Numbered from the stretch's first letter, positions 16,856-55,486 are shown. The stretch is 64,000 nt of DNA from Trypanosoma brucei (GCA_000002445.1 CM000208.1:1600001-1664000); one strand, 5' to 3'. Numbers and translations are program-made. The notes: generated by a model not told the origin, from the sequence alone.

Positions 16856-19849
16856 CTACCGATGCGAGAACTGTGTCCCGCTGAGCGTGATGAACCCCCG
16901 AACCGTACCCAGGTCCCTTTGTCGTTCGTACCACTTGGCGAGCTCCAGAGACTTAACCCGTGCTGTGTTTACAACCCCGGGGGAAATACCGGCAAGCAGC
17001 GCCACCTCAACGCCATAGCTTCTCGCGCAGATTCCGGGCACAAGGCGATAAAGAAAAGTAATGGTCGGTATATTGCTGTCACTTGCAGCAGAAACGGCAA
17101 AGTCCATGTAACCGAGCTGAACCCCCCCAGTTTCAGATGCTGCTGAGGAAGTGGATTTCTGCATGGACTTGTGCTCCTCCTGCGCGAGCGCGTGGTAGTG
17201 GGTAGAGAAGAGTAGAAGGGGCGGCACTGGGTGCCTTTTCTTCATGGCGGCGAGCATTGCGTGCGCTATTGTGTAGCCGTCGTGCGTAGATGTCCCCCTG
17301 CCGAGTTCATCCACTAAACAAAGACTCCACGGACCGGCAAACCGCACAATCTCGGCTGTCTCACTTAACTCGACATAAAGGGTACTCTGTCCTTTGTGCG
17401 TTGCATCGCGAGCGCCAATCCTTGTGAAAACACGGGTAACGGGCGCCAAGCGCATAGACGTAGCAAACACTGGTCCACCCATTTGGGCTATTATAACATT
17501 CACGGCAACTGTGCGCATCAGCGTACTCTTTCCAGCCATATTCGGTCCGGTCAGCACCAAAATGCGTCCATGTGTAGCGTCAAGATTGACAGTGTTTGGG
17601 ACAGAATCGCTTTTGAGAAATGGATGTCGTAGTTCTTCCGCAAGCAGGTACGCACCGGCGTCACATTCTTGTACAACGGGGTAGCAAGTAGCGACACCAC
17701 TGGTATGTAGCGACGCCAGACTGAGCAAACAATCAAAATAGCAAAGAGCCGCTGTGGCTTCATAAAGGACGGGGAAGTAATTAAATATATGCGAGGCAAT
17801 GTTTCGAACAACAAGTAAGAGGGCATCTGCTTTCTTCGTTTTGGCACGCTTATGCTCCTCTACCAGAGGTTCCAAACCTGCGACTGTATATCTGACACAC
17901 GCTGAAGTACGGGATCGCTCGATGAACCCAGGGGGACATCTCTTAGGTGCCTCCATCAATGGAACCTCAACCAGAAAATTTTCACGACCGATATGAGAGT
18001 AGGTGATTGCAGCACCGTTGAAAATGTTGTCGCGCAGCTCCCCTAAAACTTCATCCAATTTTTTCTCTATGATATCTAAGCACTCCGTAGCTTCGTCGTA
18101 CGCGGGACATGCTCCCTGCGATGGTACAATCACCCCTGACACCTCAGCAGCTTTTCGATCGAAACAGGCCTTGATTGAGGCGACAGCAGGAGCCACTGCG
18201 CCCATGGTTCCCCACAGTTCCTGCAAAAGAGGGGGGGCACACTCCTTTTGGACGTTGTTAGACCAATCCAGCATCTCCTCGAATGCAACAACGGTTGAAA
18301 TAATAAGTTGAAGATGCTTCTTGTACTGCACGAGAGGATCTACGAAGGCTATTTGTTGCGAGTCACCCTTCAAATCGGCCAACCGTGAAAGATTGCGCTC
18401 GAAATCTGTGGCGAAAAGGTTTGTAAATCGAGATTCAAATGTGTTTGTTGTCCTCCCCCGCTTCGATCCACACTGCGTACCACTCGCCTGAGTGAATTCT
18501 TGGGTAGGGCCCTCGGAAGTACGAGTGCTCGAATTAGGGGTGCATATTGGTGTCGTAACATCGGCAGACTCCTCCGTTTTGGCCCAGAGATCATTCAAAT
18601 TATTTTCGATGATAAAGCGTACCGCTTCCTGCCTCGCATTGATAACACGCGGGGACGCGGAAGGTCGCAAAATCCAAGAACGGAAAAGACGCTTTCCACC
18701 GTTGGTGCAACAACGGTTGATCAGATTAAAAAGAGATCCGCGTTCACTATCGTCCCGCAGGTTACCCACGAGTTCAAGATTACTTACTGTCGCGGCATCA
18801 AGAACCAACCCGGGGTCTTCGCGACGTTCGTACCACAGAAGAGTTGAATCGGAGCAACGACTTCGATCATTCGACGGCACACCGCTGGTTACCTGCTGCT
18901 TTAAAAGGTGAAAGTTGTATGGTCGAGCCTCCAAAAGTATAGAGTCAACATTACTCAACTTTAACGATCTAAAATACTGAGCTAAGAAACGACCCGCCTC
19001 CTTTAAGCTCCTCTCCTCAAGGGGGAGTTTGCGAAGTGAGGTACCAACCTCTTCAACCAGTTCAACCTGGAAACCCTCCCCTTCTACCCATTCAAATAGA
19101 CGTCTCCCAAATGATCCCTTGGGCTCCTCACCAGGCGCATCAACAGCCCCACGCGGAATTATTATTTCACGGGGACGGATTTGTTGAAGGAGCGCAGAAA
19201 CTTCATTAAGCACCTCTTCAACAAAGCCTGCGGCGCTCTCCTTGCCATTCGTACCGCAGGGACAGTGGAAAACAACGCGACGGGAAAGATCGACGGCCAT
19301 TCCATCCACACTACCGCTCCCCATTGGATACAGTGCAAGTACGAACACTGCACCATAGCCGCTGATCATCATGGGATCGGTTATGGTGCCAGGGGTAAGT
19401 ATCTCAACTAGCTCTCGTGGCACGACTTTCGGACGAGCATTTTTTGATGACTCCCCTTCCTCCTTCATTTGCTCTACTCGACCCACCTTGTAGCCCCGAA
19501 AAACGAAGAGACGGGCCCATTCACTAAATGTTTGTTCAGGGACGCCTGCAAGCCGCATTTTCCCTCGGTTAGTGGTGTCAACAACTAGCTTCAACCCGAA
19601 CTCACGGTGAGCCATAGCGGCATCTTGGTCGTAAAGCTCATAAAATTTGCCCTTTTTGAAAAAAATTACCACATCGTAGTGCTTTGACTTCACTTCCCAG
19701 TACTGTCGTTCCATGGCAGCCATTGCCTCCAAGTCCCTAGGAGGGATAGTAATAGAAGAGGGCGGTCGCTTCGGATCAATACCCCTTAAAAACGGGTAAG
19801 AAACGTTTTCAGGGCAAATGTCCTCACATTCAAGCGAAACCTCAGGCAT
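16856..19849 (-). CDS. MutS homologue of the MSH6 type (DNA mismatch repair ATPase)
   Basis: 997 aa. The N-terminal mismatch-binding motif 'VVIFFKKGKFYELYDQDA' matches MSH6 'VICYKVGKFYELYHMDA' and retains the Phe-X-Glu mismatch-recognition residues. Walker A 'LTGPNMAGKSTLMRT', 'DELGRGTSTHDG' and 'FSTHYH' of the MutS ABC ATPase are present. Paralogue assignment (MSH6 versus MSH3) is tentative. Confidence 0.85.
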   Translation of the reverse strand: MPEVSLECEDICPENVSYPFLRGIDPKRPPSSITIPPRDLEAMAAMERQYWEVKSKHYDVVIFFKKGKFYELYDQDAAMAHREFGLKLVVDTTNRGKMRLAGVPEQTFSEWARLFVFRGYKVGRVEQMKEEGESSKNARPKVVPRELVEILTPGTITDPMMISGYGAVFVLALYPMGSGSVDGMAVDLSRRVVFHCPCGTNGKESAAGFVEEVLNEVSALLQQIRPREIIIPRGAVDAPGEEPKGSFGRRLFEWVEGEGFQVELVEEVGTSLRKLPLEERSLKEAGRFLAQYFRSLKLSNVDSILLEARPYNFHLLKQQVTSGVPSNDRSRCSDSTLLWYERREDPGLVLDAATVSNLELVGNLRDDSERGSLFNLINRCCTNGGKRLFRSWILRPSASPRVINARQEAVRFIIENNLNDLWAKTEESADVTTPICTPNSSTRTSEGPTQEFTQASGTQCGSKRGRTTNTFESRFTNLFATDFERNLSRLADLKGDSQQIAFVDPLVQYKKHLQLIISTVVAFEEMLDWSNNVQKECAPPLLQELWGTMGAVAPAVASIKACFDRKAAEVSGVIVPSQGACPAYDEATECLDIIEKKLDEVLGELRDNIFNGAAITYSHIGRENFLVEVPLMEAPKRCPPGFIERSRTSACVRYTVAGLEPLVEEHKRAKTKKADALLLVVRNIASHIFNYFPVLYEATAALCYFDCLLSLASLHTSGVATCYPVVQECDAGAYLLAEELRHPFLKSDSVPNTVNLDATHGRILVLTGPNMAGKSTLMRTVAVNVIIAQMGGPVFATSMRLAPVTRVFTRIGARDATHKGQSTLYVELSETAEIVRFAGPWSLCLVDELGRGTSTHDGYTIAHAMLAAMKKRHPVPPLLLFSTHYHALAQEEHKSMQKSTSSAASETGGVQLGYMDFAVSAASDSNIPTITFLYRLVPGICARSYGVEVALLAGISPGVVNTARVKSLELAKWYERQRDLGTVRGFITLSGTQFSHR

Positions 19850-22800: not shown

Positions 22801-25800
22801 TTTCTCCACGACTTTCCCCAATTCACTAAAAGCAAGAAAAAAGTGCATTACGGCCGGTCAGGGAAAGCATTCGGCTCAAACGTACCACAGGGTAGGGGGA
22901 AATAGAGCTAAAATTCCCTCCGTGCCGTAGGCTTGCGGCAAAATCGAGGGAAAGTGCGGATCGAAAAGAATATCGGCTACAAGCTAGCAAAAAAAAACGT
23001 ACCGACGTGCAGGGAGGAGACTGGGGATGCGGCATGTCTACTCGATCTTCACATACTTACAGGCATATGCACACCGTGGGATTCAACCTGAATAGAAAAA
23101 CAGCAAAGGAATGTCAGCCATTTAGACAGTGGGGAATTTTGGGTCCGCTGTCAAGGTCAGTATTAAGCTGCATACTGGTAGACTGGGATCGACTGATTAC
23201 TGCACGATTTACAAGCAGCGGTACACACACATCTAACCGCCAAAACATATTTGCGCATGGGCGGGAATACCGGTTGTACAATTCCCCCTCCAGATTAAGG
23301 ACCACTTTGCCAAGTAAGAACCGACGACCCAGCATAATGTTCCTACAATGAATTTTCAACAATGGTCGGACCAAATAAGTAAGAGTACGCTACACCACCT
23401 TTCAAAACGGTCCACTTTCCAACACACAGAGGAAGAAAAGAGGCATGTGTCTCGAGACGCCCACAGTAAGAGAGAAAGTGTGATACATATAATCCAGAAA
23501 AGTTAATACCACCAAAGATGACTACTAAGGGCAGATAGGTATCCAGATGTGTATCTCGATACCGTTAAGAGTGGCCAATCAACGAAGCAGCATAATCATG
23601 CGGCACATCGGAAGAGAAAAACAGCTAATATATAGGATTCACGGTACTTATCTATGAGAAACAAGCGAGTCAAAATCAATCTAAAGATAATTCGCGCGGC
23701 ACAACATAAACAATCGGTAACGGAAGGGAAATCGCGGTTGCACACACATTCAGAGATTCGTCCGCCCGATTCTCCTCGAGTCGAACAGGAAAAACTCGAG
23801 TCGTTAATCCGAACACTATTGATATACAAAGTGCGTATTTCAACAGTTTCACCGAAAGACAATCATTTTCATAACCCCCATGGGCGTCAACGGCTGGCAC
23901 ACCGATAACGAACCCTTGGCAAACTCGCGAAAAAGAGGTCGGCCGAATTATCCACCAGGCCGTATATCAAAAGGCATTCACAGCCGTGACGCCGACACGA
24001 AACAGGGCAACTGAAACTGGCATAAACTCACACATATATAGTCACTTTAATTACGCCAGTTAGTAAAAATGAATAAACAATGCAACAGTTAACAGTGAGC
24101 ACAAAAGAGTGTATACATAATAATGGCGTGTTGTGCAAGGGCAATGCAACTTAACTAGCGCTACTACACGTGCAGCCATCATAACTCCCTTTTTCGAGAC
24201 GTTTCAGAGCATTTCAACGAAAAACGGCACACGTACATGCACATGAAGATGCGTCTGTTTTAAACAGTAGTAACCTACAGCGTTAAATTCCCCTAGGGAA
24301 GCAAGACGTCATGGCACCACAAGCTGCGGCCGAACGGATGCGCAACACGACATTTATGAGAACTTAAAGTCAGGCGGAAGTAATCCCTGTAAACAAAAGA
24401 GAACACTCGTTGACAAACGCAACAGAAAGGGGAAATTACAAGAAAAAACCACTAACCCAGTTACTGAAAGCGCCCCTTATATGTTTTTTTCCTTTTTTTA
24501 ATGCAACTGCAGGTAGCTTCTCGCAACAGCAAAACGAATACCACATCTCCGCCCATATGCGCAGGTATACATCGACTCCGGTTCAAAACTCTTTGTCGTG
24601 CATGATGGCTCAATACCTTCAGCGGTTGCGTCAAATTGCTTCCACACCAACCAACGACATGTTGATAAACCCGGGTGTGACGCCAACAAACAATCAAGCC
24701 CCGGGTGGTAATGTACCCAGTGCCACCGCGTCTGCAAATAATGACGCCGCTTAAAAAACATGTTAATCCACAAACTTGCCACTGTAAAGGCAAAAGGCTC
24801 ACAATCGCCGCCAGCCTAGAGTCACAACACGACCCGCCAACTCCCCAAACCGTCCAAAAAAAAAAAGATTCGACACAGCAGGGGCCAGTACTACGTAATC
24901 GCGTCCTGCATGACCCTTTCGAGCAACCCCTCGCCCCCGGCTCCGAGATTTTCTGGACAGACGCCCTCAGGCCAGAAACAAGAGGTGCGCACCCCATACC
25001 AATACACCGACGCCCCGTGCCACACCGTGTCACATCATACACTTGCGAAATGCATACTCAACATCATCGCGGGGGGATCTCCAGCGAAAGCTGCCGCTAC
25101 GGGTGTTCCCTCGGTGAAGGGTCCCTCTGGCGTCCCCATCGCTCCAAGTGGTAAAAGCGGCCGAAAATAAATTGACTACAAAGGGGGCCCCGACGTGTAA
25201 CTCGCGCGCCGCCCGAACAAACGCATTTTCGGGCAGCAGTTTATGGGGAAACCTTGTGTAAATAGTACCCCCTTGCTTAGAATCATAACCGCCGACATGC
25301 GGAAACAACTGTGGCCCACGGCGGCTGAACCACTGTGGCGCCTTGCAATGTAGCGGCCTCGACGAACACTAACACGGAGAAGTAGGGAAAAGAATTATGC
25401 AAAAAGCCCCACCCCCACGCTCACTATACACAGAGAAAAGCGGAAGCCCAAAACGCATGCGCCCGCACGCACAGCTCTGAGAACTGCGAATGAAGCCGCG
25501 CGAACGGCCAAACCTTATTTGACTTTCCCTGCTTCCGGACATTATCCTCTCCGATGCTGGGAGCGGGCCCCTTTCCTGGTCCGGTGCTTGTGCGCTCTTC
25601 CTGTCGCAGGCACTACTTGGACCATTCACCGGGACGGCGGGTAGCGGGCAAGCGTTGGGTAAGAAAACTCCTTGACGCAGTGCGAATGGTCCGCCAGACA
25701 CTCTTTCCGGAGGAGACCATGAGCAGGCAACGCTAGCCACCAAGAGGACACTGCTGTGCTCGGGACCCTGTATTGCACAGCTTTTGGGTCAACGGCGTAG

Positions 25801-26766: not shown

Positions 26767-26768
<2 letters not shown>

Positions 26769-26804
<36 letters not shown>
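26769..26804. repeat. (GT)18 microsatellite at the strand-skew switch point
   Basis: Direct read: 36 nt of uninterrupted 'gt'. Confidence 0.95.
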
Positions 26805-26806
<2 letters not shown>

Positions 26807-27106: not shown

Positions 27107-27126
27107 TTTTTTTTTGGGGGGGGGGG
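27107..27126 (+). repeat. T9G11 composite homopolymer tract
   Basis: Direct read: 'tttttttttggggggggggg'. Confidence 0.9.
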
Positions 27127-27504
27127 TGAACTGATCAACGTCTCGGGGATATTACACGATTCATAATGGGAACGTTTTCTTAGTCCCTGGTTGAAATTCA
27201 CAAATCCGACAACACAGCAAACTACTTACCACCGCCCCTCCTACAAAAAAAAGACGTTTCAACCAGTGCTGAGGAGAAAAAAGATTTCTGTTTGGCTATG
27301 GCGGGCCGTCACCTTGTTTGTACCATTGACCCACTGGCTGTCTACTTCAAAAACATACACTGCGAAATGTCACCTCAGGAAGGTAGCACCAGTTGTCTCT
27401 TGGCCAATCCATTTCTTGCCCACCCGCCTTCGGAGGAGCGTTGCAATGGAAACCGGAGATATACTGATTAGTCTTTAGGGTTTGACTGAGTTCCAAAGCC
27501 ATAG

Positions 27505-27523
27505 TTTAGAGTTAGGGTTAGGT
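27505..27523 (+). repeat. Short interstitial telomere-like hexamer cluster (TTAGAG-TTAGGG-TTAGGT), with another TTAGGG at 27475-27480
   Basis: Direct read of 'tttagagttagggttaggt'. The trypanosomatid telomere unit is TTAGGG. Confidence 0.5.
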
Positions 27524-30500
27524 GCGAGTTGGTGTACCAGTCCAAATTGCGAACATCATCTTATCTAGTGCAGCGCTTCATTACAGCTGCACCGCGTTTC
27601 CAGTAAACGTGCGTCGCTGCAACACATTGGGTGGCCAATGCCTCTCTACGGTATGGGCACGATGGCTCCCTCCTCTTGCATGTGATAGCGTGTGGGTCAT
27701 CGTTCCTTTGGTCCTATTCCTCAAATGCGGAGCAACCCCTTGGTCACTTTCTTTGAACTGAACTTCAGACTCATCGACTTGTCGAGTCATCCAATCATAA
27801 AAACGCCAGAGCCTCTCCGTGGAACTCCGCGAGCGGTCAGACTCCTCCTGAGTCAGCGTTGGACCCTTCTTGTTGGCCGTCCGGTAGTTTGCGAACAGCC
27901 CCTCTCCACTTGCAATCGGAATCTTTTTTTGGCGTCGCTTGACTGGAGCAAAGGTTCTGTAGGTAGTGCTGCGTTCAGCTTCGTCTCTTGCCCCCATCCC
28001 TCAAGGTTGATTTTTTGTTTTACTCCAGTGAGAAACCAGAACCTGTAGTGGAATGCGAGCGTCACAGTGTGAGACTAAAAAATACCCTTACGTTATACGG
28101 AGCTCTCTCGAACACTACGCCAAGATCTGTTCGAGGCACCATGGGTAGTGTTCGAGAGTCTGGTATTATACACTTTACACAAACAGGGCATATAATTATG
28201 CGGAGATTTCCCTAGTGTTCGATACTATTCAAGATGTGAGAATGCATTTCCTATGGTGACTAAAAGTGTGTTATATCGGCTTAGTTCCCCTGCACATAAT
28301 ATACCATGAGGCGTTATGTACACAATATGGGAAGTGTGGCTACTGTATATGTTATTTGTTAACTCTTCCTTCGAATGAAACTACAGTCACAGCTCTCCTT
28401 CTCACATCATATGTATCTGCTTTACCTCACATTATTACTCTATACCATCGTGTTCTAATGGGAAAAATGATGTGGAATGACGGATTGGGTGAAAAAAGAA
28501 AAGATCAGAAAGGCATGACTATCTCTCTCTATGGTGTGTGGTATACGCTGTTGATGCTTTGAAAGTTCTGCGTCATCACGTGATATCGTATATCCACATG
28601 CTGTGTGCATGTATTCGTGTGATGCATGCTTGGAACAATGGAGAGTGTGACCATGTCAGTTTGTGTTCACCACCGTGCTCTTCATCTGTAGGAGTAGGTA
28701 AAACTAACAACAGATCATCAATATTTCAACGAAGGGAAGACAGGGTCGGTTTTAATCTGCGGCCACCGAGTGTCGGAGCAACGGTGGAGCCCCAACGTAT
28801 CCGTAGTGTTCAACCCCCTCCGTTGCGGTCTCCGCGTCCCCGCTCCTCATTGTTCGGCCGCTTTTGAAGACGCCACGTTGAGACTGGAACCTGTGTCTTG
28901 CCGCTTTTGCTGGAAAGAGGAAGGAAGATCACTGTGGCCACTAACAGTGGAGGGTCGGGTGTCGTGAGATGTGTCTATCTTCCGTTGGGGTTTTCTTCTT
29001 GGGAAAGCGGTTTACCTTAGTGGGCGGCGGTAACCTGTTCTATTTGGAAGGATGTCGTGCAGGGGGTGAGTGAGTTTTCTTGACCAAGTTTACGAATTTG
29101 TTGTGCACCCCTGTTTTATCCCACTGCTTGAAGTGTTTCGGAATAGATGATAGGGAGGATGGTATGGCAAGAAACCTGCCGGGACCTTTACCGTTTCACC
29201 GCTGACTACATGTTCCCACAATTTTCTACCATATCCTTCGGGCGGCATTGCAGTGAGAGTGCCATGTGGGACAGGGGACAGATTGGAACTTGATCTTCCG
29301 GAGGTCTTCGGAGTTATAGAGTGATTGCTTCTCTTCTCCTTTCCTTTGGCGTGACTCTCATACGGAGGCTCTTGGTGAGCAGGATACAATTCGCCTGCTG
29401 ACTTTTTGGTTTATTTTTTTCCATATTTCAGTGTTGCGGGGTCACTTTCGGCACCGTTGGGAATCGAGAAGTGACGTATAAAGGTGTTCGCTTCTGCAGC
29501 AAAAAGTGGTTCCGTTTGGTATTCGTTTGTGGAGACATTTTCCCTCCTTCCCATTTCGGACAACTTTTTGTCCCGGAAGAAGGGCTTTTGGTATTGTCCC
29601 GTCCGATGATCTTTGCCCCGATCGTTCCATCATGAATAATAGCTACAACTGTGTGTGTCTGTACGGCTGTGGATATTTCCGCAGTCCCCAATCGCTTCGG
29701 TCGCTTTTACTCTTTTATAGCACGGTTTAGAGTTGGTAAGCCGGCACCGTTCCATGGAAATAGCACTCATAGACATGATATCGGCGCCCCCTCAGAGCTT
29801 ACGCGGGCATCGAAGAGTATGACTTGATTGTCGCTGTGCGATGCGGATTGGAGGGTCATGTTTCTAACGAGGCAGCACCTCGAGAGGGTCACGCTGCTGC
29901 CTGAACTAATGGCACGCGCATGGCCACATTTTACACGCTCCCATATGCCTTCAATGTTTCACATATTTTCCGCATACCGAAGGACGACGAAATCACTCCC
30001 TCTGCGTGAAGGGACATCTTTATCCCGCTCCAAAGGGTTGGAAGTTGGAGCCGTTAGTGCTTACCTCTGTTCCTGCAGAGTTGGATCGCGGAACTGTTCA
30101 GTTATCGCTATTTTTCCGTGGGGGAATTTAACGGGGGTAAGGGTGATTTTGAGGGATCCTGCAAGGTGGGTTCTTGCGTGGACAAATTCGCGCGAATCAA
30201 CACTCGAGACACCCATCTCCGGTGACAGGTTTTAGAAGAAGTTTAAGGGTACAATAACAGAGCGTTCATGCATAGCTATGCCTATTTGCTTCATATCCCT
30301 GAGGAAGTGATGCGGCAACACATCCTCGTGGGGGAAGGGACCCAAGGAGTACGAAGGGTTTCGAGTGCCTTTTATTGTTATCGAGGCATATGTCCCACTC
30401 CACTACCAAAACATCCCCGCACAACGACGGGGGCCCTTCGGGTAGTAAGCCGATCTTGCTAACCTTCTCTTTTTTCAATACATACGCGCCCACTTCTCTT

Positions 30501-31596
30501 CTCTTCGTGATGGTGTACGTGGGGGCCACCGGAATGGCGCCTGTTATGGCCCTGGAGGTTGCAAAATAAGGAGGGAACACTTTGTATAAAGGGATGGGCA
30601 ACCGGACTCGTTGTAGCAGAAAGTCGGAGGGGTCACACTCAGTTTTCGGCCCGCTGCAGGAACAACGCTTGAGGGGCGAGTCGCTAGGAAGCGTAGCGGT
30701 GAGAGCTTTCCCGTTTCTGGAGGGGTTTTGGAGAGCTGACACCGAGAATGCCGGTAGGTTCGCCTCGGCCGGGACATGACAACTGACACTATTGAATTGA
30801 GTACTTGGAGGGGTGACGGTGTGAAGGTGAGGTATCAACCGATGGAGGTCGCGCGTCCCAGCGTCCCAGGTGGCCGTCAACCTGGAACTGACAGGCCCTG
30901 TGCCTGGGCTTTTGCCGAGCTGCTCGTCTGACAGAAAGGGAAGCTGCGTCAATACTGAGGCCCTTGTCGCTGTGTTTGATGTTTTGTCGCAGATGCTGCT
31001 TTTTGTTTTATTTTTCCCCCATGGGGACTCCAAATTGAGTTAGAGCGGCGCCTGCTACAAAGAGATTTGGTCGTTTTTCGTGATAAAGTTAGGGCTCTGC
31101 TCGGTGCATTTTTTTAAAAAAAATTCTAGGAGGCAAGGGTCCTGGGCGCGGGGGCGGGGACACCACTACGTGGGCTGCAGCATGTGGACTCTGCCGGCCC
31201 CTTTTCTTTTCACCGAAACGCTAGCTGACCTATGCTCGCCGCGCACGTCCAAGGTGCCATGGAAGTACCCCCTCAGTTGTTTGCCCGGAAAGTGATGAGG
31301 GAGCAGCCGGCCATTACTAATCCGTGGGCTGCCGGTGGGACATCAGGAAGGTGATATTGCTGCCGGTTTTGTAAAGAGCAAGGTGAGACCGGCGCATCCC
31401 GACATCTCTTTGAGAGTGCCACAGCCCATCGCTAGAGAAGGCAGCGGTTTGCAGTACGCTGTTGGGGTGCGCGCCTGTCTGAGGACTTCCCTAATGTAAA
31501 CATGTTGTGGCTGCCTCTTTGGGCATGAGCGTCTTAGGTGCGATTGTTTTTTCCTACGTTTCGCGGTCGTCACAGTGGTAGGTGGTAGACTGCATG

Positions 31597-31624
31597 TTTT
31601 TTTTTTTTTTTGGGGGGGGGGGGG
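31597..31624 (+). repeat. T15G13 composite homopolymer tract
   Basis: Direct read: 'tttttttttttttttggggggggggggg'. Confidence 0.9.
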
Positions 31625-32098
31625 TGATTATCTATGCCTCTCCTCGTTTTAGGTGCGAGCATCAGCAGCGCCGGCGGACGTGTTCTTGACTCCTAGTGGG
31701 CGCGTAAAAGACGGTTTGTTTCGAGTTGTTCGGTCCACGCGGCCTGGAGCTACGTTGGCGGAAGTGGGTGGGTTCCTCCTTGTCGTATGCTCGGACAGTC
31801 CTAGCGATAAGACCGCGGGAAGGGACTTCTGTCGCGTGTGGGTGATCTGGGTTTATCGCTGTTGCTCAATGGAGCTTTTTTTAAAGGCCTCCCAAGAGGG
31901 TCCTTTTACTCTGTACTGTTCAACGTTGGCGCCCACTCGCTTAGTATTCACAGTCTTCGTGAGAAGAGGTTGGTTGCGGATACTGTAGAATGGCATCCGG
32001 CTGAAGTGCTGTGGTCTTTCTGTTGCGATGTTAAAGATACTGGCCCTCGAATCAATGTTTACCGGTGGAAGCTGTACACCTGTGTTGTGTCTGACAAT

Positions 32099-32134
32099 CT
32101 CTCTCTCTCTCTCTCTCTTTTTTTTGGGGGGGGG
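32099..32134 (+). repeat. (CT)10-T8-G9 composite tract
   Basis: Direct read: 'ctctctctctctctctctct' + 'tttttttt' + 'ggggggggg'. Confidence 0.9.
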
Positions 32135-32553
32135 AACGTGGATGTAAGTTCGCAGTCGCTTTGTTTAAGAGTTTAGTAATATCTTCGCGTGTGTCCACGA
32201 GGTGGGCGACAACTAGATTGTTCTGAGCCGCTACTGCGTATGTGCTCCGTCACCGATTCCTGTTGTTGGATGTTCAGATAATGGTGCGGGGAAACTTTCC
32301 ATGAATCACCTGGGATGCCTTGTGTAGAAGTGTCCTTTGTCTTTGTGGTTTGGTGGCACTGCCTCTCATTTCTTCAACCATCTTTTCATTTTTTAAATGG
32401 ACTATTTTCTCTTCATTTTAATGGATATCATCACTCTTGGTATGTATGTGGAGCCATTTGCATCGTCATCGTTACTTTCCCCATGCATGAAGTAGGTATT
32501 TACATCAGTTCTTGTTCCTTTGCCGCTTCATTTTGATAACAAAGCCACACGCT

Positions 32554-33291
32554 ATGAAAAGAGTTCTTTTACTCTTTGACGTTGACGGAACGCTAACCCC
32601 TCCTCGACTTTGCCAAACGGACGAAATGAGGGCTTTGATAAAGCGAGCGCGGGGTGCAGGGTTTTGTGTGGGTACAGTTGGAGGATCTGACTTTGCAAAG
32701 CAGGTTGAGCAACTCGGACGTGACGTCCTCACTCAGTTCGATTACGTATTTGCAGAAAATGGTCTACTGGCGTACCGGAATGGATTAGAGATTCATCGGC
32801 AAAGTTTGTTGAATGCACTTGGAAACGACCGCATTGTAAAATTTGTTAAGAAAACGCTGCGGCTTATTGCTGACCTTGATATTCCGGTCCAGAGGGGCAC
32901 ATTTGTCGAATATAGGAATGGTATGATAAACGTTTCGCCGATAGGACGCAACTGCTCCCAGGCTGAGAGAGATGAATTTGAAGTTTATGATAACGAACAC
33001 AGAGTCCGTGCAAGCTTAATTGCGGAGCTGGAGAATAGCTTCCCCGATTTTGGGCTGAAATACTCTATTGGTGGACAGATAAGCTTTGATGTCTTTCCAG
33101 TAGGCTGGGACAAAACCTATTGTTTGCAGTTTGTTGAAGACGACTTCGAGGAGATCCACTTTTTTGGCGATAAGACCCAAGAAGGTGGAAATGACTACGA
33201 AATTTACACGGACAAGCGGACTATTGGGCACAAAGTTACTTCCTACAAAGATACCATTGCAGAGGTGGAAAAAATAATTGCCATGAAGTAA
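32554..33291 (+). CDS. PMM: Phosphomannomutase (eukaryotic PMM, HAD superfamily)
   Basis: '[14 protein letters not shown]...[16 protein letters not shown]...[12 protein letters not shown]...[29 protein letters not shown]...[22 protein letters not shown]...[17 protein letters not shown]' is collinear with human PMM2. The ORF-track start at 32512 is TTG. The first ATG is 32554 ('[15 protein letters not shown]'), which matches the PMM2 N-terminus. Confidence 0.92.
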
Positions 33292-33638
33292 GCTACCAGG
33301 CTTTCTTCACAGTTTTTTCGAAGACAACGTACAAACACCCTTACTTACCGTTGGTTTCTGATGGGATGGAACTCAATTGCTTTGGCACCGTTTTCTTTTA
33401 GCATCCAGGAAGAACCATGGCACATTGAGTGTACCGAAGTTTGTGGATGCGGTTTACCTTTTTTGATTTTATATTTCCTAGTTCATGGAGACACATCCCT
33501 TCTTTTTGGTGGTGGACTGTGCTGTTCATATTCAATCAAGTGTCTTTCCAAACCATATGTAGCGGGATGCTTTAAAATATTCACTAGAGTAACTATTCTC
33601 TTTCGCCCTTATCGACCGAAGAAATTGAGGCAGCGATA

Positions 33639-34553
33639 ATGGATCACCCTCCCGCAGGACCGTTTGGAGGAGGGGAGTGCCGCTGCACTGGTATACGTTT
33701 TTGCCAGCACTGCATAGATTCAGATCGTGCACAGTCTATAGTCAGGCGGCACGTTTCACTCGCAAACGCATCTGATGTCGTTCTACGGCAATATACTGAC
33801 CAGCGAATGTCCTCATGCTCCTTCGCTTGCGTGGGACCTAGTCTGCTTTCTATGTGCTGCGCATGTAGGACCGTTTTTGAAACGGCTGGTGGAGTACTAA
33901 AGTGCTGCGGAGATCACAAAGGTTTTATCGCGCGAACTGATATCGAACTATCCGGATTAACGATCCAACCAGGGTTTGTTTCTCCTAATGAAGAAGAGTA
34001 CCTGGTGGCATTCTTTGATAATCCAGCCCCCTTTGCTGCCTGGAAAGTTTCACAAAGCGGAAGGAGGAAACAGGAGTACGGGCCTAAGGCCAATTTTAAG
34101 AAACGGAAGTTGAAGGTGGGTGATTTCCGAGCCTTGCCGCATCAGATGAAAACGACTCTGGACAGGGTCCGGTCCTTTGTTGCAGAACAAACGATGAGGG
34201 AATATTGTATTGTGGAAGTATCAGTTTTGGAATATACGGCTGAGTGTAGTTGTTTGGATCCTCACATCGACGACACGTGGCTATGGGGTGACCGCATTGG
34301 TGGTCTTAACTTGTTGGATGACGTTACTTTAACATTTGTGAGCGCTGATGAGGTCGCAGTGACCGTGTTTGTCCCACGTGGTGCTTTTTTTCTGCTAACC
34401 GGTGTAAGCCGCTACGAATGGATGCATGGCATACGGCGTGAGGATGTTAAAAACCGTCGTGTGTCTGTCACATTCCGGGAGTTTGCCGACAATTTGGTCG
34501 TTGATCAAGAAATACTTAAAACTATCGTAATGTCCGCTACGACATTCATTTAG
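33639..34553 (+). CDS. AlkB-like 2-oxoglutarate/Fe(II) dioxygenase (ALKBH-type)
   Basis: C-terminal half has the double-stranded beta-helix signature 'DPHIDD...WGDRIGGLNLLDD...VSRYEWMHGI...RRVSVTFRE' (HxD...H...RxS). The N-terminus is Cys-rich ('CRCTGIRFCQHC'). ATG verified. Confidence 0.65.
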   Translation: MDHPPAGPFGGGECRCTGIRFCQHCIDSDRAQSIVRRHVSLANASDVVLRQYTDQRMSSCSFACVGPSLLSMCCACRTVFETAGGVLKCCGDHKGFIARTDIELSGLTIQPGFVSPNEEEYLVAFFDNPAPFAAWKVSQSGRRKQEYGPKANFKKRKLKVGDFRALPHQMKTTLDRVRSFVAEQTMREYCIVEVSVLEYTAECSCLDPHIDDTWLWGDRIGGLNLLDDVTLTFVSADEVAVTVFVPRGAFFLLTGVSRYEWMHGIRREDVKNRRVSVTFREFADNLVVDQEILKTIVMSATTFI

Positions 34554-34804
34554 TGGCGTTCTGAGTCAGCAACTCGTGTTTCTCCCCCTTAAAGGTTTTT
34601 TTGCATGCAATTGCACTTACAGCGCAGTGACGTGGTAGTTGTTTTGTTTTGCGTGACGGTGTTGGAGTATCCGATCAACTATTTCCCCCCTGATAAATTT
34701 TATGCCCTTTATATATTGTTTCTACTGATATTTTCCGTACTCTAGGTTGACGACCGGAAGGGATTTTACATCCGTGAGGATAGTAGTAAGATATTGTTTC
34801 CGCT

Positions 34805-35980
34805 ATGCTGCCTATACTAAAGGCCGGGGAAGACGAGGGGGGTCCCCGGATCCCCCCTCCTCTATGGTGTGAGGCGAAGCGTGAGGCGTTAATCGATGGC
34901 AAAGGAAAAGTTAATCTTGAGGTAATGCTTGTTCATTTTCTTCGGCAAGGACGTTTGAGCAAGCACGATGCACTCAACATAATTCAAAATGCATCAAGTG
35001 TACTTCGTACGGAACCCAACGTCCTGAGGATTGCTGATCCTTCGGTTGTAGTCGTCGGCGACGTTCGGGGACAGTTCTACGATTTAGCAAAAATTATATT
35101 TATAGGTAATATGTTCAGTAGGGCAAAAACGTATTTGTTTCTAGGTAATTATATTGACTCATGTTTTTTTAGCACCGAGTGTATACTCCTTTTGCTTGCG
35201 GCGAAACTAACCCACCCGAGTTGTGTATTTTTGCTTCGTGGAAACCATGAATGCCGTTTTATGTCGAATATTTTCGATTTTCGGGGAGAGTGTCTGAAGA
35301 AATATAATGACGATGTTTACGAAGCCATTATGACAGCGTTTGATTGTCTTCCACTGGCAGCTGTTGTAAACAATCAGTATTTTTGTGTACATGGAGGTCT
35401 TTCACCTGACGTTACGAGTGTTGACAATATTCGCTTAATTTATCGATTTCGGGAACCCCCGTCGAAAGGGGCTATGTGTGATTTATTATGGTCTGATCCG
35501 TTTTGGGATGTAGAGAATCCGTCGTCAGTTTGCGAAGGTTCTAGAGATGATTATTACACCCCTGGAAATGGCCCATCGTACGGTACGGCGCCATGCTTTC
35601 TTGACAACGAGCAGAGAGGTTGCAGTTATTTGTTTAACTATCATAGTGTAAAGCACTTTTTGTTGACGAATGGTCTTCTTTGCGTCGTACGTAGCCATGA
35701 GGTTCAAGATGATGGTTATAAGTTGTATAGGTTCAACAGTGTTTCCAATTTTCCGTGCATGATGTCCGTTTTTTCTGCCCCTAATTACTGTGATAACTTG
35801 CACAACAAGGGTGCAGTCCTCATTCTTGAGGGGAAACAAATAGGTATAAAGCAGTTTTGTTGCTCGCCTCATCCTTATGTTCTCCCAAAGCATCTTAACG
35901 CATTTGAATGGTCATTCTCTTACCTGTTGGATAGTGTTCGCGACATATTTGCTTCCATCATTTCGTGTGAGGGAGCATGA
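34805..35980 (+). CDS. PPP-family Ser/Thr phosphatase-like protein with degenerate catalytic motifs (candidate pseudophosphatase)
   Basis: PPP fold markers are present in order, but several are altered. GDxHG becomes 'GDVRGQ', GDxVDRG becomes 'GNYIDSC', GNHE is intact ('RGNHECR'), HGG is intact ('CVHGGLSP'), 'RG' is intact, 'RSHEV' is present, and SAPNY is intact ('FSAPNYCD'). Confidence 0.75.
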   Translation: MLPILKAGEDEGGPRIPPPLWCEAKREALIDGKGKVNLEVMLVHFLRQGRLSKHDALNIIQNASSVLRTEPNVLRIADPSVVVVGDVRGQFYDLAKIIFIGNMFSRAKTYLFLGNYIDSCFFSTECILLLLAAKLTHPSCVFLLRGNHECRFMSNIFDFRGECLKKYNDDVYEAIMTAFDCLPLAAVVNNQYFCVHGGLSPDVTSVDNIRLIYRFREPPSKGAMCDLLWSDPFWDVENPSSVCEGSRDDYYTPGNGPSYGTAPCFLDNEQRGCSYLFNYHSVKHFLLTNGLLCVVRSHEVQDDGYKLYRFNSVSNFPCMMSVFSAPNYCDNLHNKGAVLILEGKQIGIKQFCCSPHPYVLPKHLNAFEWSFSYLLDSVRDIFASIISCEGA

Positions 35981-38900
35981 TGAGACTCAAGTTTCCTGTT
36001 TGTAGAACTTACATTGTCGACCCCCTTTCCGTTCTATGCCTACGAGTGCCAGCAGCGAGAGGGTATATATACGCACATATAAGCTTCTTTCTTTTATCTC
36101 GCATTTTTGATTTTAACACCGCTCCGTTGTATTTAGGTGTGGGTTAGTATTTAGTTTAAAATTCTTTCAAGTCCTCTCAACTCAGCCAGGGTCGTAAAGA
36201 GCAAGACACAGAGGGGAAAGCTGCCCTATAATCGCCTGTGGCGCATTTTCATGAGTCCTCATTAGGTGTTCCTGCGCCAGCGGCCAAAACATTGCATCAT
36301 TCCGTCGCCGTATGGAACCAACAATTGTGAAAAAAAAAAAGGATTTAATCGGGGGATCCCCTTGGAGCAGATCACTGTTATGAGGTTTATTATGAGTGTT
36401 GCGAACAGGGAAACAGCTGGTGATGTTTATAGACGTTCTGCTTTGGTATTGAGTATATGATTGCTGTACCAACTGCCATGAGGCAGTCATTAATACTTTT
36501 TTTGACTTTTAATTCGTTCTTTGATCAAAAGTGTACGTGTATGGAATCATCTTGAATATTTGGAGAATTAATCATACGTCCGGAAGATTTGAATATAGTA
36601 ACTTCTTCTACCAGAGACCGAAATACCGGGATGTGTGATTTTATGCGGTTGCCGCTGGGAGCACGCTTCTATGCGTGCCTTTTACGAGGGCGCCTACGTT
36701 GTTGCAAGTGTGATCTGTGCGGCATTTACTCGTACAGCGGAGAGCGGGGATATCGCTTCTGGGGTATGCGGGAACGGGACATTGAATGCCTTCTTTTCAT
36801 CGTTAACACTCAACTTATTGAACATCTGTAGATGTCAAAGGGTGCCGATGCCGACTGATCATCGAGATAGCGACGGAGTTACCGTTGTTCCCTGGAGTGA
36901 TGTCCGATTTTACCAAATATGAGAGGAGGAGGTCTGTGTTTTCTCTTTTGACCGGACCGGTTATGAAATGAGTGATTTACCACTGCATTCAGCATGTGCA
37001 ATGACAGCAGTAAGGTTTGTAACTCCGCTTAAATCACCACGAGTATGTGAGTGCTCGTGTGATATGTTGTACTGCGCAAGAAAGAAACACGTGGACCCAA
37101 TTCCTGCCGTATCGACCCTCGGCAAAAACGTTTCGAGCACCTCTTCGTTAAATATACGCTTGTGGATGGGCTTGAACGAGAGCGTTCGGCATCAAGATAT
37201 ATGTTTCCTGTGTAGGTAAAGACAATAGATTCGAAGTTGACGTTTCCAGAAGTGTGCAACACGCTGTGGGAAGATTCCACTGGAAGCTGCATAATTTTGT
37301 TATGTACAGATGCCGTAGGTTCATTCGGTTGCTTCTAGAACCTCGTTGGAGGATTAGATAGGCATACAGGGAGTACGCCGTTGCTTGCTCGAGGTTATAG
37401 TGCACCTCCTGTTGACACGAACGGACATACGCACGTGTGTGAACACGAAGTGCCCTTCAAACCTTAAGGATTCGATGTTTCAGTCTACTTTATCATGCTG
37501 AGGGGTTAAACTGACCTATGCGTTTTTGCACTTGGGTGTGGTTTTAGAATTCTTTGAGAGGCGGGATATTAGCATGCAGTGCCTCTGTGCTCTATATCTT
37601 CCATGCACATCCGGTCTGGTGAATGACCCTATCTCTTTACTACGCGGTGTCATGCGGCTTATACTGACAGTTGTTAACTCTGGTGCATCCTGCTGGCGTG
37701 TTAATGGCCCTCGTTGAGCGGTGAGATGTGGAGCTCCCCTCCTTTTCAAGTGGTTCTGTAAATGGTGGCTAATCGTAACTCATTCTACAGATTTGCAGCT
37801 ATGTTTTTTCCGCAGGCGCGCTGTGCAGAGATGTGTGATGCTTACAGGTGGATACCACATACTGCTCCGTTGCTGTGCGGGTTATGCTTGGGATGCAGAC
37901 ATGGAAGGGTTGGGGAATACTGACTTCCACGATGTGGGTGGCGTTAACGCTGACGAAGAAAAATATTGTTTTTGTAGATTGATTGTCAAACGAGCTGCGC
38001 GGGTGGCGTGGTGGGGGAAGGGCGTTGTTTTATTCTCTGTGTCGCTCAAGCGCTAGATCATGCACTTGAAGGAGTGTCCACCAGCGTCATCGGTGGGGTG
38101 GCTGCGCCCTTCGTTGACCATCTACATGTTTGGGTCGAAATCACTGGCGTTGTCGTCTGCTGTATTCGTGTTGGATTGCTTTACGATGGGGCGGAAGCAA
38201 CGACTCCTCTCAGCAGTGGTAAATGTTCCTCTGACGTTGCGTCTGATGCTGTATTTCTCAGCTTCATACAAGGGGGAGGAACCGAGATTACCACCATCTA
38301 CATGTGTTCTTGGGTCTTCACAGGGCAACAATTTTCTTCTTTTACCCGGCGCCTTTGCGGAGAGTGGCTGCACCACGTTCTTCCCAGGTCGAGAGGGCTT
38401 AATGAGTGAATTACAGGATGAATTGTGGCTACAGTTGCCGTCGAGGCTACTGATTTTAGCTAGATTAGATTTAGCGAACTTTTTATTTGCAGTTGTAGGT
38501 CGTTTGCCGAATAGTGGGATCAACCTCTTTCAGCAAAGGCCCCCTTCATCACTGGCAGTTTTACCCAAACGTTGCATGGGCATGACTCTTGTTGCCCTTA
38601 CAACGTTGTAACTCCTCGCGGAAATGTCTCGATTGTGTCTCTTTCGTATGGACACTTCATTTGGAGGAGGTTTTATCCCTTTTTTCTGATAAATTGATTT
38701 GTTGCAGCAACCTCGTCGTCCCCCAACATGAGTTGCACGGATCAATATTAAAGTGGAAAGAAGGGGTGCTACGACGCAGTGCTTTTGGTCGATGTCGGTA
38801 AGGTATCGCTTTGCTTCGCACTACAGGTTTTTTGTTTGGGGGTATTGCGCGGACGGTGTGTTTGTGTGTGTGTGAAAAGACTATGGGGGTAGCGAAGAAG

Positions 38901-46452: not shown

Positions 46453-46511
46453 TTTTTTGCCTCTTCTGTCTAGGTGTTTTATTTTGTCTTTTTTTGATTC
46501 ATCGATAGGTA

Positions 46512-55386: not shown

Positions 55387-55475
55387 AAAGTTGTGTGGAG
55401 ATTTATTATTACAAAGAACGAGGGGGGAAAAGGCTCGTGAAATACGAACCTTGCTGCGCTCTTCCTTCCTCTTCC

Positions 55476-55486
55476 GGGGGGGGGGG
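55476..55486 (+). repeat. G11 homopolymer preceded by a CT-rich tract
   Basis: Direct read: 'cttccttcctcttcc' + 'ggggggggggg'. Confidence 0.9.

What the first reader, a model, noticed from the sequence alone, without database searches (positions are those of the whole stretch)
27107..32134. Three strand-specific T(n)G(n) tracts confined to the plus-transcribed half of the start region
T9G11 (27107-27126), T15G13 (31597-31624) and (CT)10T8G9 (32099-32134) share the same architecture: a pyrimidine run followed by a 9-13 nt G-run. All three read that way on the plus strand, the presumed sense strand here. None occurs in mirror form (C-run then A-run) in the minus-transcribed half. Similar CT-rich-then-G tracts lie in plus-strand intergenic DNA at 55461-55486 (G11), and a G9 run lies at 63824-63832. 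From memory, runs of nine or more guanines oriented with transcription are among the few sequence features reported near T. brucei pol II start regions. Runs this long could form G-quadruplexes or R-loops on the non-template strand, or act as polymerase or replication pause sites. The composite T-then-G form is distinctive, and its strand bias here is what makes it notable.
Basis: partly seen in the sequence, partly recalled or inferred. Interest (0 to 1): 0.5.

Follow-up and report, generated by a model that had tools for sequence, protein, structure and literature searches.

The report
Known GT-rich trypanosome promoter tracts
The three T-run/G-run tracts are real and strand-specific, but they are the already-described coding-strand "GT-rich" elements at the upstream edge of a Trypanosoma brucei RNA polymerase II start region, and two of them lie inside the chromosome-10 fragment (regB1) that Wedel et al. 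2017 showed to be an orientation-dependent promoter.

Summary
The window is Trypanosoma brucei-group chromosome 10 and holds a divergent strand-switch between a MutS gene (minus strand) and phosphomannomutase (plus strand). T9G11, T15G13 and (CT)10T8G9 are exactly where stated. They are far beyond chance and are kept, with length changes, in two sister assemblies. Runs of at least 8 G are 7 of 7 on the sense strand, while G5-7 runs show no bias.

Wedel et al. 2017 (Dataset EV1, 199 start regions) count G10 203 times on the coding strand and 41 times on the non-coding strand, with 65% of coding-strand hits in the 5'-most fifth. T-to-G junction 10-mers are also listed (TTTTGGGGGG 19:2). Their primers map here: "regB" is window 31284-37972, and regB1 (31284-33083), which holds tracts 2 and 3, was the most active regB fragment and 3.3-fold weaker when inverted.

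Caveats:
- Tract 1 lies about 4.2 kb upstream of that start region.
- regB fragments with no G-run longer than 6 were still active.
- No tract is a canonical 3-tetrad G4 motif.
- The "no mirror form" claim is assembly-specific: sister assemblies carry C11 and C18 where the window has C4 (25013-25016).

Verdict: observation confirmed, interpretation supported, already known, low interest.

The parts
27107..27126 (+). Tract 1, T9G11. It lies about 4.2 kb upstream of the 5' boundary of the mapped plus-strand start region (regB), in the DNA between the two divergent start regions.
   Evidence: T8G11 and T10G10 in sister assemblies. Searches give its position relative to regB. G4Hunter 1.8. The first downstream AG is 56 nt away.
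31597..31624 (+). Tract 2, T15G13. It lies 313 nt inside the 5' boundary of start region regB, within fragment regB1.
   Evidence: T16G10 and T16G13 in sister assemblies.. G4Hunter 2.12. It is followed by CCTCTCCTCGTTTT-AG, with the AG 27 nt downstream.
32099..32134 (+). Tract 3, (CT)10T8G9. It lies within regB1, 420 nt upstream of the phosphomannomutase ATG.
   Evidence: (CT)7T11G9 and (CT)8T11G8 in sister assemblies. One search shows that other pyrimidine tracts at 32360-32425 lie nearer the ATG. The first AG is 13 nt downstream.
31284..37972 (+). Plus-strand transcription start region, 'regB' of Wedel et al. 2017 (Tb427_10_v5:1,634,960-1,641,653).
   Evidence: All ten regB primers from Table EV1 map here in the expected order and spacing. 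The full regB gave 9.6-fold luciferase over a promoter-less control.
31284..33083 (+). Fragment regB1, the 5'-most and most active regB fragment. It is orientation-dependent and contains tracts 2 and 3.
   Evidence: highest luciferase among the regB fragments and a 3.3-fold decrease when inverted. It has the only G run longer than 6 in regB.
26769..26805 (+). (GT)18 dinucleotide repeat ending in GG, 300 nt upstream of tract 1. This is another coding-strand GT-rich 10-mer class (GTGTGTGTGG, 18:1 in Wedel's region 1).
   Evidence: Its length is polymorphic among assemblies.
25013..25016 (-). Site of the mirror-image G-run on the minus-sense strand. It is C4 here, C11 in GCA_003543875.1 and C18 in T. 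b. gambiense DAL972.
32554..33291 (+). Phosphomannomutase CDS, the first gene of the plus-strand polycistron.
   Evidence: Pfam PMM hit, 5e-97. 100% identity to the T. brucei / T. equiperdum protein. ATG position read.
16856..19849 (-). MutS-family gene, the last confidently identified gene of the minus-strand polycistron.
   Evidence: Only short ORFs without a Pfam hit lie between it and 25042.
55461..55486 (+). Polycistron-internal, sense-strand CT-rich tract followed by G11, in intergenic DNA.
63824..63832 (+). Polycistron-internal sense-strand G9 with no pyrimidine tract upstream.

Best explanation
The tracts are coding-strand G and T homopolymers of the 'GT-rich' dispersed RNA polymerase II promoter class. 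They sit at the 5' edge of a Trypanosoma brucei transcription start region on chromosome 10, upstream of phosphomannomutase.

Shown by published experiment on this DNA: the 1.8-kb fragment holding tracts 2 and 3 (regB1) drives reporter transcription better than the other regB fragments. It is 3.3-fold weaker when inverted.

Shown for the class: synthetic arrays of coding-strand-enriched 10-mers, which include T-to-G junctions, are sufficient for orientation-dependent transcription and H2A.Z deposition, and they are nucleosome-depleted.

Inferred for these particular tracts: the rigid oligo(dT) and oligo(dG) runs exclude nucleosomes and so help set the upstream boundary of the open, H2A.Z-marked start region. 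Their strand asymmetry, G and T on the non-template strand, biases productive initiation towards the plus direction. The T-runs of tracts 2 and 3 may also serve as polypyrimidine tracts for the first trans-splice acceptors. Tract 1, with the (GT)18 repeat beside it, lies between the two divergent start regions. It is best read as an upstream outlier of the same class, in a position like the G-tracts under TBP/SNAP50 peaks a few kb upstream of acetylated-histone domains in Leishmania major.
For: Organism and locus: PMM is 100% identical to the T. brucei group protein, which lies on a 4.05-Mb contig. Gene order and skews show a divergent switch.

Direct link to experiment: all regB primers map to 31284-37972, and regB1 is 31284-33083. 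regB1 was the most active regB fragment and was 3.3-fold lower when inverted.

Class definition met:
- Every T-to-G junction 10-mer and G10 on Wedel's Dataset EV1 occurs at the tracts, on the coding strand only.
- The published 10-mer set peaks on the plus strand at 26-28 kb (12 against 1) and at 30-32 kb (15 against 0).
- Tracts 2 and 3 fall in the 5'-most fifth, where 65% of coding-strand G10 hits lie genome-wide.
- The GT_416 synthetic promoter contains T6G7 and T4G7 junctions and is directional, H2A.Z-depositing and nucleosome-depleted.

Oligo-d(A.T) and oligo-d(G.C) runs are under-represented in T. brucei nucleosomes.

The long-run strand bias is not explained by composition: G5-7 runs are 58:51 and G>=8 runs are 7:0.

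Leishmania parallel for tract 1.
Against: No experiment has deleted or mutated these tracts.

All five regB fragments were active above background, including regB2-regB5, whose longest G run is 6. The tracts are therefore not necessary for basal initiation.

Tract 1 lies outside the mapped start region.

The orthologous switch regions of T. cruzi, T. theileri and T. grayi have only G5-G6 runs and no T(n)G(n). The long runs are therefore lineage-specific and not under deep conservation.

The sister assemblies are only about 1% diverged, so retention of the tracts there says little about selection.

Sense-strand G-runs also occur inside polycistrons, at 46332, 55476 and 63824. In L. major, G-tracts were judged neither universal nor sufficient.
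Confidence: 0.65

Rival explanations
1. The tracts are neutral by-products. Strand-asymmetric, transcription- or replication-associated mutation enriches G and T on the coding strand, and polymerase slippage then expands short runs into long homopolymers. On this reading the tracts mark the start region but do nothing there.
For: The tracts behave like microsatellites. Most of the 14 indel blocks between three assemblies in the 10.7-kb switch region lie in homopolymer or dinucleotide runs, and the two largest are the C-run (4/11/18) and the GT repeat. Tract lengths differ among assemblies. The long runs are absent at the orthologous locus of T. cruzi, T. theileri and T. grayi. regB fragments lacking long G-runs are still active. 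GC and AT skews follow transcription direction across the whole window.
Against: G5-7 runs show no strand bias (58:51) while G>=8 runs are 7:0. A simple skew-plus-slippage model would bias the short runs too. Genome-wide, G10 concentrates in the 5'-most fifth of start regions (132 of 203 coding-strand hits) and is not spread along them. Synthetic arrays of such 10-mers are sufficient for directional transcription.
Confidence: 0.2
2. The pyrimidine part is the functional element. The T and CT runs are polypyrimidine tracts that direct spliced-leader trans-splicing at the first AG downstream, together with coupled polyadenylation of upstream RNA. The G-run beside them is incidental.
For: T>=7 runs pile up on the coding strand upstream of splice-acceptor sites, especially the first one of a polycistron. 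The first AG lies 27 nt after tract 2 and 13 nt after tract 3, within the usual 10-40 nt. T>=8 runs are strongly sense-biased throughout the window.
Against: This does not explain why three of six G>=8 runs directly abut a T>=8 run (p~5e-9), or why G-runs themselves are strand-biased and concentrated at start-region edges. Tract 1 has no AG within 56 nt and no downstream ORF. Better-placed pyrimidine tracts lie nearer the PMM ATG, at 32360-32425. Wedel's reporter carried its own GPEET splice signals, so regB1 activity was not due to splicing signals alone.
Confidence: 0.12
3. The tracts are replication-related. They would be part of an origin or a fork or polymerase pause site, since T. brucei origins coincide with some strand-switch regions and G4s lie near mapped origins.
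For: ORC1/CDC6 binds all strand-switch regions, and a subset of about 45 act as origins (background). SNS-seq origins are flanked by strand-specific G4s and homopolymers. G4Hunter scores of the tracts are 1.7-2.1.
Against: The published origin signature pairs poly(dA) with G4 on the same strand. Here G-runs are paired with poly(dT) on the same strand, which is the opposite arrangement. R-loop mapping found no origin-specific signal at switch regions. None of the tracts meets the canonical 3-tetrad G4 motif.
Confidence: 0.03

Closest known systems
GT-rich dispersed RNA pol II promoters of Trypanosoma brucei (Wedel, Forstner, Derr & Siegel 2017, EMBO J; PMC5579346)
   Same: Same organism group, and the same locus for tracts 2 and 3 (regB1). 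The tracts lie on the coding strand in the 5'-most fifth of the start region. Their 10-mers are on the published enriched list (G10, TTTTTTTTGG, TTTTTTTGGG, TTTTGGGGGG, TTTGGGGGGG). The functional synthetic promoter contains T-to-G junctions.
   Different: The paper treats G and T stretches as a loose 10-mer class and does not single out an abutting T(n)G(n) composite. Tract 1 lies about 4.2 kb outside the mapped start region. No mutation of these particular tracts was reported.
Strand-specific guanine runs at T. brucei divergent strand-switch regions (Siegel et al. 2009, Genes Dev; not held in the library, recalled from memory and cited by Wedel for the G/T skew)
   Same: Long G-runs lie on the sense strand at the upstream edges of the histone-variant and H4K10ac domains of divergent start regions. 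With the C11/C18 run of the sister assemblies, this locus shows that two-sided arrangement.
   Different: I could not read the paper, so the exact run lengths and positions it reports are unverified here. In this window's assembly the left-hand run is only C4.
G-tracts at presumed pol II initiation sites in Leishmania major (Thomas et al. 2009, BMC Genomics; PMC2679053)
   Same: A G-tract of about 10 nt or more was the only motif recovered. It is associated with TBP/SNAP50 peaks a few kb upstream of the acetylated-histone domain, a position like that of tract 1 relative to regB.
   Different: Different genus. Those authors found G-tracts throughout the genome, absent from almost half of the sites, and judged them insufficient. 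No T-run partner was described.
Polypyrimidine tracts of spliced-leader trans-splicing signals
   Same: Sense-strand T/CT runs lie 10-40 nt upstream of an AG, and oligo-dT piles up before the first acceptor of a polycistron and helps form a nucleosome-depleted region. Tracts 2 and 3 fit this geometry.
   Different: A 9-13-nt G-run inserted between the pyrimidine tract and the AG is not part of the described signal. Tract 1 does not fit the geometry.
Poly(dA)/G4-enriched elements at T. brucei replication origins (eLife 2026, PMC13179062)
   Same: These are strand-specific homopolymer-plus-G-rich composites in intergenic DNA of the same organism.
   Different: There A-runs and G4s share a strand. 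Here T-runs and G-runs share a strand.
Poly(dA:dT) and poly(dG:dC) nucleosome-excluding tracts of constitutive promoters in yeast and other eukaryotes (as summarised in Wedel 2017)
   Same: The proposed mode of action is the same: intrinsically rigid homopolymers keep promoter DNA open without a sequence-specific factor.
   Different: That mechanism alone is symmetric with respect to strand and does not explain the orientation dependence seen in trypanosomes.

Membership tests
T. brucei GT-rich dispersed pol II promoter element (Wedel 2017) | Lies within an H2A.Z-defined transcription start region, preferentially in its 5'-most fifth | tested here: met
   Met for tracts 2 and 3. The regB primers place the start region at 31284-37972, and its region 1 is 31284-32620. 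Not met for tract 1 (27107), which is about 4.2 kb upstream of the boundary.
T. brucei GT-rich dispersed pol II promoter element (Wedel 2017) | On the coding (non-template) strand relative to the downstream polycistron | tested here: met
   All three tracts read T(n)G(n) on the plus strand, upstream of plus-strand genes.
T. brucei GT-rich dispersed pol II promoter element (Wedel 2017) | Built of 10-mers from the published list that are >=6-fold enriched on the coding strand | tested here: met
   TTTTTTTTGG, TTTTTTTGGG, TTTTGGGGGG and TTTGGGGGGG occur at all three tracts. GGGGGGGGGG occurs at tracts 1 and 2 only, because tract 3 has G9. Of these five 10-mers, only TTTTTTTTGG occurs on the opposite strand of the window, four times in the minus-transcribed half, where that strand is the sense strand. 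The whole list peaks on the plus strand at 26-28 and 30-32 kb.
T. brucei GT-rich dispersed pol II promoter element (Wedel 2017) | Drives orientation-dependent transcription | not testable with these tools
   Published for the 1.8-kb regB1 fragment that contains tracts 2 and 3 (most active, 3.3-fold lower when inverted), and for synthetic 10-mer arrays. Never tested for these tracts alone. regB2-5, which have no G run longer than 6, were also active.
T. brucei GT-rich dispersed pol II promoter element (Wedel 2017) | Promotes H2A.Z deposition and is nucleosome-depleted | not testable with these tools
   Shown for the synthetic elements. No chromatin data are available here for these coordinates.
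Intramolecular G-quadruplex-forming sequence | Canonical motif G3+ N1-7 G3+ N1-7 G3+ N1-7 G3+ (a single G-run needs >=15 nt) | tested here: not met
   None of the three tracts matches. All match the weaker 2-tetrad pattern. G4Hunter scores in a 25-nt window are 1.8, 2.12 and 1.68. The only canonical plus-strand motif in the switch region is at 31137-31159.
Intramolecular G-quadruplex-forming sequence | Experimental G4 signal (G4-seq or G4 ChIP-seq) | not testable with these tools
Trans-splicing polypyrimidine tract | Sense-strand pyrimidine run with an AG acceptor about 10-40 nt downstream | tested here: met
   Tract 2: AG 27 nt after the G-run. Tract 3: AG at 13 nt. Tract 1: 56 nt, so not met.
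Trans-splicing polypyrimidine tract | Spliced-leader addition observed at the downstream AG | not testable with these tools
   No RNA-seq data are available. Other pyrimidine tracts lie nearer the PMM ATG.
Replication-origin poly(dA)/G4 element (SNS-seq, eLife 2026) | Poly(dA) and G4 on the same strand, upstream of the origin centre | tested here: not met
   Here poly(dT) and the G-run share the strand.
Leishmania-type G-tract at TBP/SNAP50 sites | G-tract of >=10 nt a few kb upstream of the acetylated-histone or start-region domain | tested here: inconclusive
   Tract 1 (G11) is about 4.2 kb upstream of the regB boundary, which matches by position. TRF4/SNAP50 occupancy cannot be tested, and the comparison is across genera.

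The most novel reading that the evidence does not exclude
The abutting T(n)G(n) composite, and not G-runs or T-runs separately, could be a discrete functional unit that sets both the upstream boundary and the direction of a start region. One possible mechanism is that a weak rU:dA stretch followed at once by a very stable rG:dC stretch seeds a co-transcriptional R-loop or non-template-strand G-structure in one orientation only. This locus carries three of what appear to be only about 20 such junctions in all T. brucei start regions, and would then be an unusually strongly insulated or directional promoter. Strain differences in run length, together with the C4/C11/C18 polymorphism on the other side, would tune promoter strength.
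Probability: 0.1. Interest if true: 0.45.

Novelty: already known. Interest (0 to 1): 0.13.

Why it matters
Trypanosome pol II promoters were long thought to lack sequence determinants. GT-rich coding-strand tracts are one of only two promoter-type elements described so far, the other being a 75-bp element. This finding rediscovers that element from raw sequence and lands on the locus used to define it, so it validates the scan but adds no new biology. Three small points are left over. T-to-G junctions are a rare subclass that clusters at this locus. One tract lies outside the mapped start region. The G-run on the opposite side of the switch varies from 4 to 18 nt between assemblies. These could motivate a targeted tract-deletion experiment in an existing reporter system.

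Tried and rejected
- Exact-protein look-ups with window ORFs and with the TREU927 PMM found nothing. The T. b. gambiense allele worked.
- Rfam and tRNA scans of the switch region found no RNA gene that could explain the tracts.
- The flanks of the three tracts share no similarity, and the switch region has no dispersed repeat. Duplication or a retroposon-tail origin is therefore rejected.
- No ORF of note lies in 25-32.5 kb. The 255-aa minus-strand ORF at 30266-31033 and the 193-aa ORF at 24461-25042 have no Pfam hit.
- The canonical G4 reading is rejected for the tracts themselves.
- The replication-origin signature is rejected because the strand pairing is wrong.
- Wedel's chr1, chr9 and chr10 insertion-site primers and the regA primers do not map to the window. 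Only regB does.
- Deep conservation was tested and not found. T. cruzi, T. theileri and T. grayi keep the switch in front of PMM but have only G5-6 runs. The T. vivax contig ends 1.1 kb upstream.
- Siegel et al. 2009, Maree & Patterton 2014 and Cordon-Obras et al. 2022 are not held. Statements about them rest on memory or on how other papers cite them.
- I could not scan a whole T. brucei genome, because no eukaryotic genome collection is searchable. The genome-wide numbers are Wedel's and not mine.

Full report
**1. Observation**

The three tracts are exactly as described: T9G11 at 27107-27126, T15G13 at 31597-31624 and (CT)10T8G9 at 32099-32134.

They are not chance events. The window has six G/C runs of at least 9 nt against 0.23 expected from dinucleotide-preserving shuffles. 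T>=8 directly followed by G>=8 occurs three times against none in 200 shuffles. Given 24 T>=8 runs in 38 kb, three of six G>=8 runs abutting one has p of about 5e-9. The flanks of the three tracts share no similarity, so they arose independently and not by duplication.

**2. Context**

ORFs, Pfam hits and skews show a divergent strand-switch. Minus-strand genes run up to a MutS homologue (16856-19849). Plus-strand genes start with phosphomannomutase (PMM; ATG at 32554). GC and AT skew change sign at about 26-27 kb.

PMM is 100% identical to the T. brucei TREU927 / T. equiperdum protein, which lies on a 4.05-Mb contig. The window is therefore Trypanozoon chromosome 10. The switch region holds no tRNA, no Rfam family and no convincing ORF.

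**3. Strand bias**

All seven G runs of at least 8 nt lie on the sense strand. This count includes the C9 at 13942-13950 in the minus-transcribed half. That run is the inverted-duplicate copy of the G8 at 46332.

G5-7 runs are unbiased (58 sense, 51 antisense). The bias is therefore a property of long runs and not of base composition, with p of 0.012, or 0.023 if the duplicated run is counted once.

Enrichment of long runs in the switch region is only suggestive within this one window: p=0.024 against all DNA and p=0.11 against non-coding DNA.

**4. The mirror-form claim is assembly-specific**

Two sister assemblies are about 99.1% identical over 20.7 kb: GCA_003543875.1 and T. b. gambiense DAL972. 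Both keep all three tracts with small length changes:

| Tract | Window | GCA_003543875.1 | T. b. gambiense DAL972 |
|---|---|---|---|
| 1 | T9G11 | T8G11 | T10G10 |
| 2 | T15G13 | T16G10 | T16G13 |
| 3 | (CT)10T8G9 | (CT)7T11G9 | (CT)8T11G8 |
| Site 25013-25016 | C4 | C11 | C18 |

At 25013-25016, on the left edge of the switch region, the sister assemblies carry a long G-run on the minus-sense strand. The locus therefore has, or recently had, the two-sided arrangement of sense-strand G-runs. Whether C4 is real or a collapsed homopolymer cannot be decided here.

Most indels among the three assemblies fall in homopolymer or dinucleotide runs, so the tracts behave like microsatellites.

**5. What it is**

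Wedel et al. 2017 (PMC5579346) divided all 199 T. brucei start regions into fifths. They listed the 10-mers that are at least 6-fold more frequent on the coding strand (Dataset EV1; totals):

| 10-mer | Coding strand | Non-coding strand |
|---|---|---|
| GGGGGGGGGG, all five fifths | 203 | 41 |
| GGGGGGGGGG, 5'-most fifth only | 132 | 17 |
| TTTTTTTTGG | 35 | 9 |
| TTTTTTTGGG | 16 | 2 |
| TTTTGGGGGG | 19 | 2 |
| TTTGGGGGGG | 17 | 4 |

Synthetic promoters assembled from these 10-mers include T6G7 and T4G7 junctions. They drove orientation-dependent transcription, attracted H2A.Z and were nucleosome-depleted.

Scanning the window with the published list gives plus-strand peaks at 26-28 kb (12 hits against 1) and at 30-32 kb (15 against 0). 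Each listed T-to-G junction 10-mer occurs at all three tracts.

**6. This locus has been tested experimentally**

The primers of Wedel's Table EV1 for start region 'regB' (Tb427_10_v5:1,634,960-1,641,653) all map to the window in the expected order. regB is 31284-37972, and its first fragment, regB1, is 31284-33083. Tracts 2 and 3 lie in regB1 and in the 5'-most fifth of the start region.

The paper reports four relevant results:
- The full regB gave 9.6-fold luciferase over a promoter-less control.
- All fragments were active above background.
- The 5'-end fragments regA2 and regB1 were the most active.
- Inverting regB1 lowered activity 3.3-fold.

regB2-regB5 contain no G run longer than 6. 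Long G-runs are therefore not required for basal activity, but the fragment that has them is the strongest and is directional.

One mismatch and one 1-nt deletion in two primers indicate that the window is not the Tb427 v5 sequence itself.

**7. Mechanism**

What is shown:
- Fragment-level promoter activity and orientation dependence for regB1.
- Sufficiency of the 10-mer class for directional transcription.
- Depletion of oligo-d(A.T) and oligo-d(G.C) runs from T. brucei nucleosomes.

What is inferred: these particular tracts help keep the upstream edge of the start region open and bias initiation towards the plus strand.

The T-runs of tracts 2 and 3 also have the geometry of trans-splicing polypyrimidine tracts, with an AG at 27 and 13 nt. 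A dual role is therefore plausible, although better-placed pyrimidine tracts lie nearer the PMM ATG.

R-loops do peak at the boundaries of divergent switch regions and correlate with H2A.Z there. G4 signals are enriched about 2- to 5-fold at start regions. None of the three tracts reaches the canonical 3-tetrad G4 motif, however. They meet only the 2-tetrad pattern, with G4Hunter scores of 1.7-2.1.

The published replication-origin signature pairs poly(dA) with G4 on one strand, which is the opposite of the T-with-G arrangement here.

**8. Tract 1**

Tract 1 lies about 4.2 kb upstream of the regB boundary, next to a (GT)18 repeat whose GTGTGTGTGG end is the second most enriched 10-mer in Wedel's list. 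It belongs to the same sequence class but is outside the mapped start region. Its position resembles the G-tracts under TBP/SNAP50 peaks a few kb upstream of acetylated-histone domains in Leishmania major. The authors of that study judged those G-tracts neither universal nor sufficient. This parallel is an inference.

**9. Evolution**

PMM is also the first plus-strand gene at a divergent switch in T. cruzi, T. theileri and T. grayi. There the switch region is only 0.5-1.3 kb wide and the left-hand genes differ from those of T. brucei. The polarity is kept, C/A-rich on the left and G/T-rich on the right, with G5-6 runs and long T runs. There is no G run of 7 or more and no T(n)G(n). The long runs at this locus are therefore specific to the T. 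brucei lineage. That fits either a lineage-specific promoter style or neutral expansion.

**10. Verdict**

The feature is already known, and two of the three tracts lie in the fragment used to define it.

Three points are not in the literature I could read:
- The abutting T(n)G(n) form is a rare subclass, with about 19 TTTTGGGGGG sites on the coding strands of 199 start regions, and it occurs three times at this locus.
- One tract lies outside the mapped start region.
- The opposite-side G-run varies from 4 to 18 nt between assemblies.

These are modest points. Interest is low.

Noticed in passing
window 13825-15851 (-) and 44431-46456 (+): There is a perfect inverted duplication of about 2.03 kb that carries a 562-aa Cpn60/HSP60 gene on each arm of the divergent switch. 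Both copies are transcribed away from the switch. The arms are 100% identical except for a 1-nt homopolymer difference (C9 against G8) in the 3' flank. This suggests recent gene conversion or an inverted duplication spanning the start region.
   Followed up: partly
window 25013-25016; L004 2459-2469; L005 2433-2450: A C-run at the left edge of the switch region is C4 in the window, C11 in GCA_003543875.1 and C18 in T. b. gambiense. This is either a striking length polymorphism of the minus-side sense G-run or a collapsed homopolymer in one assembly. In gambiense a 231-aa 'gene' is called across it, and that call looks spurious.
   Followed up: partly
window 26769-26805: A (GT)18 repeat ending in GG lies on the plus strand 300 nt upstream of tract 1. 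It is 6 nt shorter in L004 and 8 nt longer in L005. It matches the second most coding-strand-enriched 10-mer class of Wedel's list (GTGTGTGTGG, 18:1).
   Followed up: partly
window 31137-31159: The only canonical 3-tetrad G4 motif in the switch region (GGGtcctGGGcgcGGGGGcGGGG, plus strand) lies about 125 nt upstream of the regB 5' boundary. It immediately follows a T7A8 palindromic run at 31109-31123.
   Followed up: no
window 19850-32553 versus L002 9506-10000, L007 8741-10000, L008 8257-9143: Synteny breaks at this switch region. T. cruzi, T. theileri and T. grayi have a ~203-aa gene and Vps41 to the left of PMM, with a gap of 0.5-1.3 kb. T. brucei has MutS and HSP60 to the left. Its gap is 7.5 kb from the no-Pfam ORF that ends at 25042, or 12.7 kb from the last confidently identified gene, MutS.
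   Followed up: partly
window 46332-46339, 55461-55486, 63824-63832: Sense-strand G8-G11 runs lie in intergenic or 3'-flank DNA well inside the plus polycistron. I did not check whether they mark internal start sites.
   Followed up: no
Wedel 2017 Table EV1: The row for pCW24v2_regB1rc lists the coordinates of regB2 (1,636,267-1,638,057), but its primers are the regB1 pair. By primer mapping, the inverted fragment is regB1, window 31284-33083.
   Followed up: yes
L006 1-24 (Logan contig ERR7929163_1996): A short-read assembly contig of this locus starts exactly in tract 3 (T12G12), so the homopolymer breaks assemblies. Run lengths in any assembly should be treated with caution.
   Followed up: no
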